A stretch of 53,838 bases of DNA from an uncultured bacterium (GTDB lineage Bacteria; Patescibacteriota; Minisyncoccia; Phycocordibacterales; PALSA-1337), in assembly GCA_903842025.1 (NCBI GenBank), contig CAIMKX010000042.1, positions 1-53,838 of the forward strand, in the 5' to 3' direction. Below the pieces are notes generated by a model. The model was not told the DNA's origin and searched no databases. It saw nothing but the letters and a program-made list of their open reading frames with translations. Positions 6,987 through 46,512 of this stretch are shown here, piece by piece. Position 1 is the first letter of the stretch, and each line of letters begins with the position of its first letter. The position numbers and the translations under genes are program-made.

Positions 6987-7297
6987 AAAAAATCCCCCGC
7001 TTCGGCAGTCAACCCCTTGATTCAATCTGAAAATCCCCCGTCCTTCGGCTCCGCCTCAGGACACCCCCTTTTCCAAAGAGGGATCCTCCATCGAACCATA
7101 TTTATAATATAACTCGCCATGACTTTAATCACTCTTTGTGTTTCGTAATTCAAAGTATTTGAACAATAGCGTCATGTATTACATTAGCTGTACGTTGGTG
7201 GATCCCCCTTTGGAAAAGGGGGTGCCCCGACCAACGGGAGGGGTGGGGGATTTTTTGAAAGATAAAGGGGGTGCCCCGTAGGGGCGGGGGATTTTTA
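6987..7297. repeat. Family-A REPIN-like element with conserved ~125-bp core (copy 1)
   Basis: CCCCCTTT/AAAGGGG arms flank core 7081-7206, which is homologous to 10453-10583 and 31366-31497. Overlaps the prfB stop. Confidence 0.88.
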
Positions 7298-8182
7298 GAT
7301 ATCCCGTTCCGCCTCAATAAACTCCCCTATTTCTCCTTCCAAAACCTTATCAACCTGACTGGTCTCAAAATCTGTCCGATGATCCTTGACCATCTTGTAA
7401 GGATGCAAAACGTAGGAACGTATCTGATTGCCCCATTCGATAGAAGTTGTTGAGGAGATCTGCATACCGCGCTCCTTGGCGATCCGCACATCTTCACTGT
7501 GTTTCCAGAGTTTGCCGCGTAATATTTCCAGGGCTTTTTCCCTATTTTGGGCCTGCGAACGCTCGGAAGTGACATGAATGGAGATACCGGTCGGTTTGTG
7601 GACCAAACGGACGGCCGTCTCCCTTTTGTTGACGTTTTGGCCGCCAGGCCCGCCAGACTTGGCGATGCTAATTTCTAAATCGCTTTCGTTGATGACAATG
7701 TCGCTGGCTGAAGCTTTTTCAAGCTTGGGAACGACTTCAACCATTGAGAAAGAAGTATGACGTTTCTCATTGGCATTAAATGGTGAGATCCTGACCAATC
7801 GATGGACACCGGATTCATTCTTCAAAGTACCATATACATTCTTACCCGAAATTTCGACCGTGATATTACGATATCCACCATGATCATTTTCATTGCTGTG
7901 AATAACGCTCCAACCCCAACCCTTTCCTTCGCAATACTTCCGGTACATTCTGACAAGCATAGATGAGAAATCCTCGGCATCATCACCGCCGGCGCCGGAG
8001 AGGATTGTTACAATAGCTTCGCCTTTGTCGTATTTGCCAATACCTTCCAGACTGTCTTTCAGATTGGCTAGCTCTTTAATCGTTGCCTGAGCTTTTTCCT
8101 TGTCCATCCAAAAATCCCCCGCGGACATGGCAGTCTCAATTTCGGCGATCCTTTCTTGAATTTTGGCTTTATCTTGGTTCAT
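7295..8182 (-). CDS. prfB: Peptide chain release factor 2, compact form
   Basis: SPF motif (VRISPFN), [18 protein letters not shown] at 8182 preferred because the TTG start at 8194 overlaps a tRNA. Confidence 0.93.
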
Positions 8183-8188
8183 TAAGAG

Positions 8189-8261
8189 AGCCAAAGGTCG
8201 GGATTGAACCGACGACCCCCGCTTTACGAAAGCGGTGCTCTACCAACTGAGCTACTTTGGC
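8189..8261 (-). tRNA. tRNA-Thr(CGT)
   Basis: GCCAAAG/CTTTGGC acceptor stem, CCGCT-TTCGTAA-AGCGG anticodon arm. Confidence 0.95.
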
Positions 8262-8415
8262 GAAAGAGTCACCAAGTTTTGACTCAAGAAGAGTGCTACA
8301 TGAACAGCTGTTTTAGTGTCGATATCCACGGTATTAACATCCTACACCGACTACCACTTGAATCATGCCCGTTGGGTATCTAATCCATCAGACATTTTAA
8401 TCTTGGTGACTTTTC
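8262..8415 (-). ncRNA. ssrS: Probable 6S RNA-like structured RNA
   Basis: Closing stem GAAAAGTCACCAAG/CTTGGTGACTCTTTC, a large central bubble and an apical irregular stem. G-U pairs work only on the minus strand. Confidence 0.55.
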
Positions 8416-8446
8416 AATACTATCAGTGCTTACCCGAGACTTCAAG

Positions 8447-8706
8447 AGCCGACGTCCGGGATTGAACCGGAGACCTCGCCATTCGTTTACACCTCACCTT
8501 ACGGGAGGACTAGACTGTATCTTTCTCCAAATCTTTTGGAGACCCTTGTCAGTCGTTCGGGCCCAATCTGTTGGGCCACGGTCTTATCCATTACAAAAGG
8601 CTCTGGACTTTAACCGTTATTCGGGATTCATCTTGACGTTACCGTCAGGATGGGCAGGGTCTTACGACCTACCAATGGCGTGCTCTACCAACTGAGCTAC
8701 ATCGGC
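8447..8706 (-). tRNA. tRNA-Thr(GGT) split by a group I intron (exons 8671-8706 and 8447-8483)
   Basis: Joined exons give the anticodon arm CGCCA-TTGGT|AA-TGGCG, with normal D, T and acceptor arms. Confidence 0.92.
8484..8670 (-). ncRNA. Group I intron, 187 nt, at tRNA position 36/37
   Basis: 5' exon ends in U, intron ends in G. P1 with a U-G pair and GUAA loop, P2 with a GUAA loop, P7 GACUG/CAGUC with J8/7 AAGAUA, P8, P9. Confidence 0.9.
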
Positions 8707-8735
8707 TTATGATTAACTAATTCAAAGAACTCGAG

Positions 8736-8809
8736 CGCGCCCGATGGGGCTCGAACCCACGACCTCTCCCGTGACAGGGGAGCGTTCTAGCCAACTGAAC
8801 TACGGGCGC
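8736..8809 (-). tRNA. tRNA-Asp(GTC)
   Basis: GCGCCCG/CGGGCGC acceptor stem, CTCCC-CTGTCAC-GGGAG anticodon arm. Confidence 0.95.
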
Positions 8810-8856
8810 ATGAACACTAATGTACCAGAATTGAGCCAAAAAACAAAGGGTTGCTG

Positions 8857-8930
8857 TGCCGATGCCTGGACTCGAACCAGGGACCTTCTCTTTATGAGTG
8901 AGATGCTCTAGCCACCTGAGCTACATCGGC
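8857..8930 (-). tRNA. tRNA-Met(CAT), probably elongator
   Basis: GCCGATG/CATCGGC acceptor stem, loop CTCATAA, A31-A39 mismatch. Ile2 is less likely because tRNA-Ile(TAT) is present. Confidence 0.85.
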
Positions 8931-9027
8931 GTTAAACGTTACACTACAATACAATAGACGAAAAACGGCTCCTGTGCAAATCTCCCATTGCTTAAATTAC
9001 CGCTTTATGGCAAAATGTACCGAACAT

Positions 9028-9099
9028 CGCGGGGTAGAGCAACGGTAGCTCGTCAGGCTCATAACCTGAAGATTGTCGGTTCGATTCCGGCCCCCGCAA
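9028..9099 (+). tRNA. Initiator tRNA-fMet(CAT)
   Basis: CGCGGGG/CCCCGCA with the C1-A72 mismatch, TCAGG-CTCATAA-CCTGA anticodon arm. Confidence 0.93.
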
Positions 9100-9103
9100 C
9101 AAG

Positions 9104-9688
9104 TTATTGAGTAATTTCTGGGTGTGCTTTTAAGTATTCATCTCGAACATGTGTACCGAGAGTTTGAGCCGTATTTGGTAGATTCCGAGTAGGATTGTTA
9201 TAGAAGAATTGTTTCAGAAAGTTCATATATTCCCTATCGTACAGAGCATAAATAGATTTTGTTGCCGATGTCTCCACATCATATTTAACCTTAGGATGTT
9301 CGCTATCAATAAAAGAGAAGAAATCATCTCGGTGATCATTGAACGCAGATAAAAATCCTATTGTTTCGACAAACTTCTTTCCAGCATCAGTTAATTGAAC
9401 AGGACTATATGCCTGTAATTCAGTATGATTGAACCCGCCTTGATTTTTTATCAGAAAATCACAGACTACTTTTACATTTGTTTTTATCTTTTCAGACGTT
9501 TTTACAAGCCCATCGAGAACTTGTAATTTTCTACCGATATATATGAATCCAGCGATTAATGAAACCACACCAATCGTCGTGATAACATCAAAAAAAGAAA
9601 CCGAAAATGCTTGAACTGCAGGAACAGCTTGTGTTACCTGTTGAGAACTCTGCATCGTGGATGAAGTAAGAATATTTGATGTCGCCAT
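9104..9688 (-). CDS. Hypothetical single-pass membrane protein, AT-rich
   Basis: 194-aa ORF with one hydrophobic segment. Stop abuts the tRNA-fMet 3' end. Confidence 0.75.
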   Translation of the reverse strand: MATSNILTSSTMQSSQQVTQAVPAVQAFSVSFFDVITTIGVVSLIAGFIYIGRKLQVLDGLVKTSEKIKTNVKVVCDFLIKNQGGFNHTELQAYSPVQLTDAGKKFVETIGFLSAFNDHRDDFFSFIDSEHPKVKYDVETSATKSIYALYDREYMNFLKQFFYNNPTRNLPNTAQTLGTHVRDEYLKAHPEITQ

Positions 9689-10382: not shown

Positions 10383-10410
10383 GGGATTATTATAGCGCGA
10401 ATGTTCAAAT

Positions 10411-10636
10411 AAAAAATCCCCCGGCCTGCCGGCCACCCCCTTTTTCAAAGGGGGATCCTCCATCGAACTACATTTTTAATATAACTCGTTGTGACTCTAA
10501 TCACTCTTCGTGTTTGATTTTAACCCAGAGAGTAATTAAGCAGTAGCGACATATATTACATAAGCTATACGTTGGTGGATCCCCCTTTGAAAAAGGGGGG
10601 TGTCCTGAGGCGTAGCCGAAGGACGGGGGATTTTTT
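10411..10636. repeat. Family-A REPIN-like element with conserved core (copy 2)
   Basis: AAAAAATCCCCC...GGGGGATTTTTT termini, core 10453-10583. Confidence 0.9.
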
Positions 10637-10637
10637 A

Positions 10638-12089
10638 TTATTCACTCCCCAAAAACTCCTTCCCCGCCCTGAATATAGTTTCCTCAGCTCCATGCGTCGC
10701 CGTCAACTGAAGTCCGATCGGCAAATCTTTGCCATCTTTCTTGGCGAATCCACATGGAACGGATATCGCCGGCATTCCGGTAATATTGGCGGTGACCGTG
10801 AAAATATCCTCCAAATACATCGAAAGTGGATCGCTGGTCTTTTCACCGATCTTGAAGGCTGGCGAAGGCGCCGTCGGTGTCGCTATCAAATCTACTGATT
10901 CAAAAGCCTTCAGAAAATCATTGGTAATCATCCGACGCACGGCATTGGCTCGATTGTAATAAGCGTCGTAATAGCCTGAAGAAAGAACGTAGGTACCTAG
11001 AAGTATTCGACGAATAACTTCGCGACCCAACCCAGCCTTCCTTGTCTTGAAATAGTCCTCGATACCGTCCTTACCGTCGACATGCAAACCAAATCTCATT
11101 CCATCGTAGCGCGCCATGTTTGAGGAAACTTCCGCCGGCATCACGATATAATAAACCATGAGAGCGTAGGAAATATTCGGCAATTTTACCTCTTTTATCT
11201 CATAGCCTTTTTCCTTGAATTGAACCAGGGATTTTTCAAAAGCCTCCATAACCGATTTATCAATCCCATCACCGCCCAGGAAATGCCTTGGAACGCCTAT
11301 TGTTGGTTTTCGGTCGCCGCTTTGATATTTGATATTTGATATTTGATATTTGTACGTCTGTTCATCTATCGTTGTGCCATCCTTAATGTCTTTCCCGCGA
11401 ATGGCATTGAATACTATTTCGCAATCGGAAACCGTCTTACCGATCGGACCGATCTGATCCAACGAAGAACCCATCGCCATCACACCATACCGCGAAACCG
11501 CCCCATAAGTCGGTTTGAGCCCAACCACACCACAGAAGCTTGCCGGTTGGCGTATGGAACCCCCTGTATCCGATCCAAGAGCAAATAAAGCGCCATCCAT
11601 AGCAACAGCCGCCGCTGAGCCACCGGAAGAGCCTCCTGCGACCCTATTCAAGTCCAAAGGATTTTTGGTCACGCCATAGGCAGAATTTTCCGTCGAACCG
11701 CCCATGGCAAATTCATCCATATTTGTCCGGCCAAGAAAGACGACGCCTTCCGCCTTCAATCTTGAAGTCACTGTCGCGTCATAAGGAGCACGATATTTTT
11801 GCAGAATATTTGACGCGGCGCTGGCAATCTGGCCTTGGATCAAAATATTGTCTTTTATACCGCACGGAATCCCCGTAAGCATTCCGCCTTTTCCGGATTT
11901 AATTATCTTATCAGCCGCTTTTGCCGATTCAATTGCCACATCAAAAACTTCCAAATAAGCATTGACATCCTTGTTCTTTTTCTTTATTTCATCCAAATAG
12001 GCTTGAGTCAATTCGACAGCGGTAAAGTCCCCTCTTTTCAGTGCTTCATGGGCTTTTAATATTGTTAGATCTTTTAAATTAATCTTCAT
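10638..12089 (-). CDS. gatA: Glu-tRNA(Gln) amidotransferase subunit A
   Basis: GIKDNI, DEFAMGGS, GGSSGGS, GSDTGGSIRQPA, RRILLGTY. Confidence 0.98.
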   Translation of the reverse strand: MKINLKDLTILKAHEALKRGDFTAVELTQAYLDEIKKKNKDVNAYLEVFDVAIESAKAADKIIKSGKGGMLTGIPCGIKDNILIQGQIASAASNILQKYRAPYDATVTSRLKAEGVVFLGRTNMDEFAMGGSTENSAYGVTKNPLDLNRVAGGSSGGSAAAVAMDGALFALGSDTGGSIRQPASFCGVVGLKPTYGAVSRYGVMAMGSSLDQIGPIGKTVSDCEIVFNAIRGKDIKDGTTIDEQTYKYQISNIKYQSGDRKPTIGVPRHFLGGDGIDKSVMEAFEKSLVQFKEKGYEIKEVKLPNISYALMVYYIVMPAEVSSNMARYDGMRFGLHVDGKDGIEDYFKTRKAGLGREVIRRILLGTYVLSSGYYDAYYNRANAVRRMITNDFLKAFESVDLIATPTAPSPAFKIGEKTSDPLSMYLEDIFTVTANITGMPAISVPCGFAKKDGKDLPIGLQLTATHGAEETIFRAGKEFLGSE

Positions 12090-46244: not shown

Positions 46245-46438
46245 AATATCCCCCACTTCTTGGTTGTGTTTGAAGCATTGATCGCTTCCCACCTTGTTAA
46301 GTTTCCAACATTCTCTTTTGAATCCTAGAAGAAAACAAAAAATATGTCAATGCAACGTCTTTTGCCGAAGTTATAAATTCCGTTGTTTGAAAACGGCCTG
46401 CACTTCGAAGTCCCGATGAACATCGGGACGAAGTAGTG

Positions 46439-46512
46439 TCCGCCCTCCTGGACTCGAACCAGGGACCCTCGAGGTATAAGCTCGATGCTCTAACCAACTG
46501 AGCTAAGGGCGG
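46439..46512 (-). tRNA. tRNA-Ile(TAT)
   Basis: CCGCCCT/AGGGCGG acceptor stem, TCGAG-CTTATAC-CTCGA anticodon arm, discriminator A. Confidence 0.92.

What the first reader, a model, noticed from the sequence alone, without database searches (positions are those of the whole stretch)
8447..8706. Very small (187-nt) group I intron in tRNA-Thr(GGU) at position 36/37
Seen: the exons join into a normal tRNA-Thr. The intron has a U-G P1, GNRA-capped P1/P2, P7 GACUG/CAGUC and a terminal G, with no homing endonuclease. Known: the classical bacterial tRNA group I introns are in Leu(UAA), fMet, Ile(CAU) and Arg(CCU), and the compact Azoarcus model intron is about 205 nt. CPR genomes are intron-rich, so this host tRNA may already be reported. 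Standard tRNA finders may miss the gene.
Basis: partly seen in the sequence, partly recalled or inferred. Interest (0 to 1): 0.7.

Follow-up and report, generated by a model that had tools for sequence, protein, structure and literature searches.

The report
Group I intron in tRNA-Thr(GGU)
The only threonine tRNA(GGU) gene of this tiny-genome bacterium is split just after its anticodon by a well-conserved 187-base self-splicing-type (group I) intron, one copy of a large family that is common in such bacteria, so it is a real annotation catch and not a new kind of element.

Summary
Confirmed. On the minus strand, window 8447-8706 is a tRNA-Thr(GGU) gene. Its exons (8706-8671 and 8483-8447) are separated by a 187-nt intron (8670-8484) inserted between nucleotides 36 and 37.

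At least 38 of 200 related genomes carry a homologous intron at the same site. Many others have the same exons joined directly. On 37 aligned copies, 96% of cells in a P1-P9 group I fold are paired, and 32 of 51 pairs show compensatory changes. A U.G pair marks the 5' splice site, and all 38 copies whose intron 3' end was read end in G.

The genome has no intron-less Thr(GGU) gene, yet ACC and ACU make up 57% of its Thr codons. The intron must therefore be removed.

Rfam (13.2 bits, cut-off 50) and default ARAGORN both miss it. There is no endonuclease gene in or beside it.

It is not exceptional within its family: 151 distinct copies span 158-266 nt. This scan has noted the same intron at least 31 times on other DNA, and a 2020 preprint catalogues 21 classes of intron-split tRNA genes.

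Added here: the L2 loop and P8 receptor co-vary, one 158-nt copy lacks P9, and close relatives sit inside phage head and tape-measure genes. Splicing itself was not shown.

The parts
8447..8706 (-). Whole interrupted tRNA-Thr(GGU) gene (260 nt); no encoded CCA
   Evidence: ARAGORN -i; sequence
8671..8706 (-). 5' exon, tRNA nucleotides 1-36, ending in anticodon GGU; U36 (8671) is the -1 nucleotide
   Evidence: 100% identical to the 5' half of intron-less genes in relatives
8484..8670 (-). Group I intron, 187 nt
8447..8483 (-). 3' exon, tRNA nucleotides 37-73
8653..8673 (-). P1: exon GGU (8673-8671) plus intron AG.. pairs with ..CUGCC (8657-8653); U36.G wobble at the splice site; extension hairpin capped by GUAA
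   Evidence: the U.G and the two G-C pairs are invariant in 37 of 37; the two extension pairs co-vary (A-U/G-U/U-A; G-C/A-U)
8629..8652 (-). P2 hairpin, about 10 bp, with GUAA tetraloop L2 at 8642-8639
   Evidence: 8 of 9 pairs have compensatory changes. L2 is GNRA in 137 of 141 family members
8623..8625 (-). P3 5' strand, CCC (pairs with 8543-8545)
   Evidence: 100% of cells paired, 2 of 3 pairs with a two-sided change (CUC/GAG, CCU/AGG)
8543..8545 (-). P3 3' strand, GGG; forms the P3/P7 pseudoknot
8578..8617 (-). P4 (ACGGUU 8617-8612 with GACCGU 8583-8578) enclosing P5 (UCCA 8607-8604 with UGGA 8590-8587) and L5
   Evidence: P4 invariant in 37 of 37; all 4 P5 pairs co-vary
8560..8577 (-). 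P6 hairpin, GGCCCAA/UUGGGCC
   Evidence: 6 of 7 pairs with compensatory changes
8550..8554 (-). P7 5' strand, GACUG; presumed guanosine-binding helix
   Evidence: invariant in 37 of 37. The role in G binding is inferred from knowledge of group I introns
8513..8523 (-). J8/7 (AAGAUA, 8523-8518) plus P7 3' strand (CAGUC, 8517-8513)
   Evidence: This is the stretch of the core that Rfam RF00028 aligns with high posterior probability; it is nearly invariant in A1
8524..8542 (-). P8 hairpin, UCUCCAAA/UUUGGAGA, with a CC:GG step; proposed receptor for L2
   Evidence: all 4 counted pairs co-vary. L2/P8 co-variation
8492..8508 (-). P9 hairpin with GUAA tetraloop L9
   Evidence: 4 of 5 pairs co-vary. 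One 158-nt family member (L081) has no P9
8509..8510 (-). P9.0 5' strand, GU; pairs with AC at 8486-8485 just before the terminal G
   Evidence: G-C 28 / A-U 7 / G-U 2, and U-A 28 / C-G 7 / U-G 1 / gap 1, of 37
8484..8484 (-). Terminal G (omega G) before the 3' splice site
   Evidence: G in 38 of 38 homologues, found with a pattern that did not ask for it

Best explanation
This is a functional, ORF-less group I intron of the compact bacterial tRNA type (IC3-like, Azoarcus-like). It interrupts the genome's only tRNA-Thr(GGU) gene between U36 and A37. Proposed mechanism, step by step. (1) The tRNA is transcribed, probably together with the adjacent same-strand tRNA-Met, tRNA-Asp and tRNA-Thr(CGU) genes (inferred). 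(2) The intron folds into P1-P9. A 3-nt guide GCC pairs with the anticodon GGU and places U36.G at the 5' splice site. P3/P7 form the core pseudoknot. The L2 GUAA tetraloop docks on the CC:GG step of P8. These helices are supported by co-variation; the docking is inferred from loop/receptor co-variation. (3) A free guanosine bound in P7 attacks after U36 (inferred from group I chemistry). (4) The terminal G, positioned by the 2-bp P9.0, replaces it. The exons are held together by the tRNA anticodon stem and are ligated, giving a normal tRNA with the anticodon loop UUGGUAA. The pairing is shown; the chemistry is inferred.
For: Same-site homologues occur in at least 38 of 200 relatives: 19 of 92 in the same genus, 5 of 28 in other genera of the family, and 14 of 80 in other families of the order. 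Precise intron-less alleles also exist; 5 of 5 that I fetched read GGT|AA with nothing between. All 38 homologues whose intron 3' end was read have U at -1 and G at the intron's end. On 37 aligned copies, 96.3% of cells pair, against 32-45% when the partner columns are slid. 32 of 51 pairs have two-sided changes, and 0 of 500 shuffles reach any of the five measures. RNAalifold finds the same helices unaided. P9.0 co-varies. L2 and P8 co-vary as a tetraloop and its receptor would. The single-sequence MFE fold recovers P1, P2 and P4-P9 with z = -6.1. The genome (99.3% complete) has Thr(CGU) and Thr(UGU) genes but no other Thr(GGU) gene and no second copy of the intron. ACC (32.7%) and ACU (24.6%) are the commonest Thr codons in 367 long ORFs. 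The family is widespread: at least 120 loci in the one-genome-per-species collection, 117 of them with Thr(GGU)-type exons, and 8 of 150 genomes drawn evenly from the phylum.
Against: Splicing was not observed. The Rfam group I model scores 13.2 bits against a cut-off of 50. P3 is only 3 bp and the exon part of P1 is only 3 bp, so folding may need help. P4 and P7 never vary in the 37 copies, so they carry no co-variation evidence either way. I did not compare the intron directly with an authentic IC3 intron sequence, so the subgroup assignment rests on architecture and on recalled features.
Confidence: 0.88

Rival explanations
1. It is a genuine group I intron, but it splices efficiently in the cell only with a protein helper (an RNA chaperone or a specific cofactor) and not autonomously.
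For: P3 is only 3 bp and the exon part of P1 only 3 bp. One family member has lost P9 altogether. Such trimmed peripheries often go with dependence on a helper; that link is my general knowledge of group I introns, not something tested here.
Against: Both stabilising tetraloops (L2, L9) are kept, and L2/P8 co-vary. From recall, the similarly small Azoarcus intron self-splices well. No candidate cofactor gene lies next to the intron.
Confidence: 0.1
2. The gene is dead: a decayed intron or other insertion has inactivated tRNA-Thr(GGU), and ACC/ACU are read by another tRNA.
For: Thr(UGU) and Thr(CGU) genes exist in the genome. No RNA evidence of splicing was obtained.
Against: The core is invariant and the helices keep their pairing through compensatory changes across families of the order, which implies selection on the RNA. 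The exons are intact and identical to those of intron-less genes. ACC is the commonest Thr codon, and from general knowledge it is normally read by a GGU anticodon.
Confidence: 0.02
3. It is an intron of another kind, either a protein-spliced bulge-helix-bulge intron or a group II intron.
For: None found.
Against: The site is 36/37, not 37/38, and no bulge-helix-bulge motif can be drawn at the junctions. At 187 nt the element is far too short for a group II intron, and Rfam returns no group II match. The P1-P9 architecture fits group I.
Confidence: 0.01

Closest known systems
[quoted passage not shown]
   Same: Both are ORF-less and about 200 nt. They sit in a bacterial tRNA anticodon loop directly after anticodon nucleotide 36, with U-1 and omega G. 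The exon part of P1 is very short. P2, P5, P6, P8 and P9 are simple hairpins with no P5abc-type extension, and L2 and L9 are GNRA loops. The class names and the IC3 assignment come from the preprint text. The structural details of Azoarcus are recalled, not tested here.
   Different: The host tRNA is Thr(GGU) and the guide is GCC. P3 is only 3 bp. Rfam RF00028 does not recognise the element (13.2 bits). The host organisms are Patescibacteria, not Proteobacteria. I made no direct sequence or model comparison with the Azoarcus intron, because I held no copy of it.
Group I intron-split bacterial tRNA genes catalogued by K. P. [quoted passage not shown]
   Same: The preprint extends the known classes from 4 to 21 and reports 0.49 interrupted tRNA genes per genome in metagenomic assemblies of unnamed phyla (whole main text read). 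In its nomenclature this intron would be Thr.5Ug.
   Different: The readable text never names Thr. Table 1 and Fig. 3, which list the classes, are images, and the supplements are closed. Several earlier notes of this scan say Thr.5Ug is listed there; I could not verify that. The preprint gives no structure, tertiary contacts or phage relatives for this family.
[quoted passage not shown]
   Same: [quoted passage not shown]
   Different: I saw only its entry in the reference list of PMC12641178. The preprint is not held, so I cannot say whether it covers Thr(GGU) 36/37 or another site.
[quoted passage not shown]
   Same: They are self-splicing IC3 introns in tRNA anticodon loops with a patchy distribution suggesting gain and loss (passages of PMC4033280 and PMC8450103).
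   Different: The insertion sites differ (Leu.3Ug, fMet.2Ug), as do the hosts. Some fMet introns carry an endonuclease ORF; this one carries none.

Membership tests
Group I intron (Rfam RF00028 Intron_gpI) | Score at or above the Rfam gathering cut-off (50 bits) | tested here: not met
   13.2 bits, E = 0.36-0.74. 0 of 20 family members reach the cut-off; 5 of 20 are listed at 16.3-28.6 bits. According to Williams 2020, none of the model's seed sequences was bacterial.
Group I intron (structural definition) | P1 formed by the 5' exon and an internal guide, with a U.G wobble at the 5' splice site | tested here: met
   GGU/GCC with U.G, invariant in 37 of 37; U at -1 in 38 of 38
Group I intron (structural definition) | Terminal G (omega G) at the 3' splice site, positioned by P9.0 | tested here: met
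   G in 38 of 38, found with a pattern that did not require it; the 2-bp P9.0 co-varies
Group I intron (structural definition) | Core of P3-P8 and P4-P6 domains with a P3/P7 pseudoknot, kept by compensatory change | tested here: met
   51 pairs in 10 helices, 96.3% of cells paired, 32 pairs with two-sided changes, 0 of 500 shuffles as high. P4 and P7 are invariant, so they are uninformative.
Group I intron (structural definition) | Conserved J8/7-P7 segment (classical 'S' element) | tested here: met
   AAGAUACAGUC is aligned to the RF00028 consensus AAGAUAUAGUC with high posterior probability; it is nearly invariant across 37 copies
Group I intron (functional definition) | Guanosine-initiated two-step self-splicing | not testable with these tools
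   No experiment was possible. Contigs of public RNA runs show the joined form, but so does a DNA run, so they tell nothing about splicing.
Subgroup IC3 (bacterial tRNA introns) | Located in a tRNA anticodon loop, ORF-less, compact, no P5abc or P2.1 extensions | tested here: met
   Site 36/37; single hairpins for P2, P5, P6, P8 and P9. The feature list for IC3 is recalled.
Subgroup IC3 (bacterial tRNA introns) | L2-P8 and L9-P5 tetraloop-receptor contacts | tested here: inconclusive
   L2-P8 is supported. When L2 is GAAA, a GCUAAG..UAUGC receptor-like P8 is present in 27 of 54 copies, against 0 of 83 with other GNRA loops. A CC:GG P8 is present in 64 of 83 against 1 of 54. The copies are related, so these counts overstate independence. 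L9-P5 was not tested.
Subgroup IC3 (bacterial tRNA introns) | Sequence or model similarity to authentic IC3 introns | not tested
Archaeal/eukaryal protein-spliced tRNA introns | Bulge-helix-bulge motif, canonical site 37/38 | tested here: not met
   The site is 36/37 and no such motif can be drawn at the junctions

The most novel reading that the evidence does not exclude
The tRNA-Thr(GGU) intron family is not confined to tRNA. It moves between Patescibacteria tRNA-Thr genes and structural genes of phages without any endonuclease of its own, recognising little more than a 3-4-nt target (GGU, or GGAU in one phage gene), for example by reverse splicing. On this reading phages are the vehicles that explain its patchy spread across genera and families. 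Four IMG/VR contigs carry introns scoring 87-123 bits with the Thr-family model, against 21-30 bits for other Patescibacteria tRNA introns. These phage copies sit in frame in a major-head-protein gene and a tape-measure gene, and in a tree they fall at two separate places inside the Thr-intron diversity.
Probability: 0.25. Interest if true: 0.55.

Novelty: new member of a known kind. Interest (0 to 1): 0.3.

Why it matters
Practical value. In a large share of Patescibacteria genomes, standard annotation silently omits an essential tRNA gene. At least 38 of 200 genomes in this order and 8 of 150 across the phylum are affected. This can be misread as a missing decoding capacity for ACC/ACU. The model built here (R1) finds the family at 122-209 bits, where Rfam gives less than 30.

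Value for RNA research. The family supplies about 150 natural variants of a ribozyme smaller than the Azoarcus model, including a 158-nt copy with no P9 and a natural swap of tetraloop and receptor. One carrier is a cultured bacterium, Niastella populi, in which splicing could be tested directly.

Value for evolution. Its relatives in phage genes give a testable route for the spread of introns that have no endonuclease.

None of this makes the element a new kind of thing.

Tried and rejected
1. Rfam RF00028 in the window's own genome gave a second, slightly better hit (C24:6017-6190, 17.9 bits). On reading, it is AT-rich and looks like coding sequence. The family model R1 finds nothing there. 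Rejected as chance.

2. ARAGORN -i labelled many family members as tRNA-Arg(gcg), His(gtg), Pro(ggg), Leu(gag), Phe, Gln or Ala. All 12 that I read are Thr(GGU) with the intron after GGU, so the labels are boundary artefacts. 117 of the 120 collection loci pass a Thr(GGU)-exon pattern. That pattern required TGGT before the intron and G at its end, so it cannot be used as evidence for U-1 or omega G.

3. Public reads. A joint that removes exactly the 187 nt is seen in contigs of three wastewater RNA runs (X9, X10, X15), but also in the DNA run X1. Relatives carry intron-less genes with identical exons, so this is no evidence of splicing. Two short RNA-run contigs cross an exon-intron border (8465-8529 and 8650-8700); they could be precursor RNA or DNA carry-over. 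No verdict on expression.

4. There is none. The neighbours are other tRNA genes, a release-factor gene, ftsE/ftsX-like genes, two unknown ORFs and gatA.

5. Promoter and terminator consensus scans of 8000-9200 gave nothing above chance.

6. Tree of the 37 introns against taxonomy. Genus g1 needs at least 5 label changes, of which 2 are forced by well-supported branches. However, 18 of 34 inner branches are unresolved and several rows sit on long branches, so this is only a weak hint of horizontal transfer.

7. Literature. Nine searches found no paper whose readable text names a group I intron in bacterial tRNA-Thr. This does not show that it is unpublished; see Closest known systems.

8. L9-P5 docking and P10 were looked at by eye only. 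No consistent P10 beyond one possible A-U pair was seen, and I make no claim about it.

Full report
WHAT IS THERE

The feature lies on the minus strand. Read 5' to 3' from 8706 to 8447, it is 36 nt of tRNA ending in ..CGCCA-UU-GGU, then 187 nt, then 37 nt beginning AA-UGGCG. Joined, the two outer parts form a regular tRNA-Thr(GGU): a 7-bp acceptor stem, D and T arms, a 5-bp anticodon stem and the loop UUGGUAA.

Default ARAGORN and Rfam at gathering thresholds report the neighbouring tRNA-Thr(CGU), tRNA-Asp and two tRNA-Met genes, but not this one. ARAGORN with its intron option calls tRNA-Thr(ggt) with a 187-nt intron at position 37.

IS IT A GROUP I INTRON?

The Rfam model alone would say no. 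RF00028 gives 13.2 bits against a cut-off of 50, although it aligns the J8/7-P7 segment AAGAUACAGUC and the GNRA-capped P9 convincingly.

The single sequence folds far better than shuffles (z = -6.1, 0 of 200 as good), and the MFE structure already shows P1, P2 and P4-P9. The decisive evidence is comparative.

A DNA search of 200 related genomes found the whole interrupted gene in at least 38 of them. These are 19 of 92 in the same genus, 5 of 28 in other genera of the family and 14 of 80 in other families of the order, at 67-90% identity. The figure is a lower bound, because 393 weaker matches were not listed. In many other relatives the two exon halves match at 100% and abut each other.

I fetched five such intron-less genes, and all five read GGT|AA with nothing between. 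In all 38 intron-bearing homologues whose intron 3' end was read, the insert lies at exactly that point and ends in G. The pattern I used did not require the G.

STRUCTURE

I aligned 37 copies with 8-nt exon flanks (alignment A1). I left out G088, which is cut by a contig end, and G086, which is 266 nt with an insertion.

RNAalifold predicts 48 pairs, 30 of them with compensatory changes. I then added P3 as a pseudoknot and counted a full P1-P9 structure:
- 96.3% of 1876 cells are standard pairs, against 32-45% when the 3' partners are slid by 1-3 columns.
- 32 of 51 pairs show two-sided changes.
- 0 of 500 shuffles reach the observed value on any of the five measures.
- P2, P5, P6, P8, P9, the P1 extension, P3 (CCC/GGG, also seen as CUC/GAG and CCU/AGG) and the anticodon stem all co-vary.
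- P4 and P7 are invariant, so they say nothing either way.

A 2-bp P9.0 just before the terminal G also co-varies: GU/AC, AU/AU, AC/GU.

The exon part of P1 is only GGU/GCC, with U36.G at the splice site. This is as short as the guide I recall for the Azoarcus intron.

A covariance model built from A1 (R1, 199 positions, 45 pairs) scores the window copy at 209 bits. It finds no other copy in the window or in the genome.

IS IT NEEDED?

The assembly (950 kb, 56 contigs, 99.3% complete) has Thr(CGU) and Thr(UGU) genes but no intron-less Thr(GGU) gene. ACC (32.7%) and ACU (24.6%) are the commonest threonine codons in 367 long ORFs. The intron must therefore be removed to give a working tRNA. That is inference; no splicing was observed.

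Contigs of public RNA runs do contain the joined form. So does a DNA run, and relatives carry intron-less genes with identical exons, so these data decide nothing.

HOW COMMON, AND IN WHICH GENES?

Nearly all are Patescibacteria MAGs, under names such as Paceibacterota, Kaiser-, Yanofsky-, Wolfe-, Taylor-, Komeili-, Uhr- and Peregrinibacteria, and many are labelled Saccharibacteria. A few are not: the cultured Niastella populi, a Pedobacter MAG and a Lachnospiraceae MAG.

ARAGORN labels many of these as Arg, His, Pro or Leu. The 12 I read are all Thr(GGU), so those labels are boundary artefacts. 117 of the 120 pass a Thr(GGU)-exon pattern.

Pooling all loci gives 151 distinct introns of 158-266 nt. 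At 187 nt, this one is ordinary for its family.

In an even sample of the phylum, 8 of 150 genomes carry it at 131 bits or more. Weaker hits of 21-30 bits are other introns, in tRNA-Tyr, tRNA-Asn and other tRNA genes.

None of 20 diverse family members reaches the Rfam cut-off.

(a) L2 is a GNRA tetraloop in 137 of 141 copies, and its identity tracks P8. With GAAA, P8 carries a GCUAAG..UAUGC motif like the 11-nt receptor in 27 of 54 copies, against 0 of 83 with other GNRA loops. With GUAA, GCAA and the like, P8 has a plain CC:GG step in 64 of 83 copies, against 1 of 54. This matches the tetraloop-receptor preferences I recall from Costa and Michel, and it argues for an L2-P8 contact as in Azoarcus. 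The copies are related, so the counts overstate independence.

(b) The shortest copy (L081, 158 nt) has no P9 at all.

(c) The same core occurs in four IMG/VR viral contigs, scoring 87-123 bits with R1, but not in a tRNA gene. One splits a major-head-protein gene after its fifth codon (phrog_9953, E = 1.6e-47). Another sits in a tape-measure gene, where removing it restores a frame of about 940 aa, and it uses the same GGU/GCC pairing. The remaining two contigs are identical to each other and have no PHROG match. In a tree, these phage copies fall at two places inside the Thr-intron diversity, with at least 2 changes forced by well-supported branches. Long branches and a 200-column alignment make this tentative.

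WHAT IS KNOWN

- Reviews name tRNA-Leu(UAA), fMet, Ile(CAU) and Arg(CCU) as the classical bacterial hosts (passages of PMC4033280, PMC8450103 and PMC3984707).
- Lui et al. 2021 remark that tRNAs of candidate-phyla-radiation genomes carry group I introns that hide them from detection, without naming which tRNAs (PMC8172020, passages).
- Williams 2020 (whole main text read) extends the list to 21 classes and built a bacterial tRNA-intron model. The table and figure naming the classes are images and the supplements are closed. The readable text never mentions Thr.
- A 2025 preprint on group I introns in Patescibacteria tRNA genes is known to me only by its title.
- This scan has itself noted the same intron on other DNA: 31 earlier notes hold the search words, and several state that the class is Williams's 'Thr.5Ug'. 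I could not check that statement.

VERDICT

This is a real, conserved and almost certainly functional group I intron, and a useful annotation catch. It is a further member of a known kind, not a novelty. The intron tree against taxonomy and the phage relatives hint at horizontal movement without an endonuclease. That is the most novel reading the evidence leaves open, at about one chance in four.

Noticed in passing
L185-L188 (IMG/VR contigs IMGVR_UViG_3300015613_000310, _3300002917_000010, _3300020570_000137, _3300042452_000346), intron near locus positions 2380-2590: Close relatives of the tRNA-Thr intron (87-123 bits with model R1) interrupt phage protein-coding genes: a major head protein gene after codon 5, and a tape-measure gene of about 940 aa. 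In a tree they fall inside the Thr-intron diversity at two places.
   Followed up: partly
window 6987-7300 and 10404-10640: Two copies (about 87% identical) of an intergenic element of about 230-300 nt. Each is internally palindromic, with G/C-rich hairpin ends. One copy lies between the ftsE-like and release-factor genes, the other just before gatA. It looks like a small repeated palindromic or MITE-like element.
   Followed up: no
L168/L179 (G218:C4:342909-343408): Two intron-containing tRNA genes in tandem in another Patescibacteria genome: Thr(GGU) with this family's intron (160 bits), and about 20 nt away a tRNA-Tyr(GUA) with a different group I intron (30 bits with R1).
   Followed up: no
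L081 (CAZCNP010000001.1:293730-294370): A 158-nt family member with no P9 hairpin. Its core is otherwise intact and P3 reads UCU/GGA. It is a candidate for a minimal natural ribozyme.
   Followed up: partly
L098 (Niastella populi NZ_LWBP01000002.1:12970-13610), L054 (Pedobacter MAG), L095 (Lachnospiraceae MAG): The family also turns up outside Patescibacteria, including in a cultured Bacteroidota species. L098 has Thr(GGU) exons and scores 168 bits with R1. L095 did not pass my exon pattern and was not examined further.
   Followed up: partly
window 46438-46512 (minus strand); whole genome: The genome has a tRNA-Ile(UAU) gene. ARAGORN finds no tRNA-Trp, Leu(CAA), Leu(UAG) or Pro(GGG) gene in the 56 contigs, and reports one odd tRNA with a 2-nt anticodon call. 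Some of the missing genes may also be interrupted or unassembled.
   Followed up: no
G200:C29:41613-41664: A 52-nt match (81%) to the intron core only (query positions 145-200), with no matching Thr exons listed. It may be a related intron in another gene.
   Followed up: no
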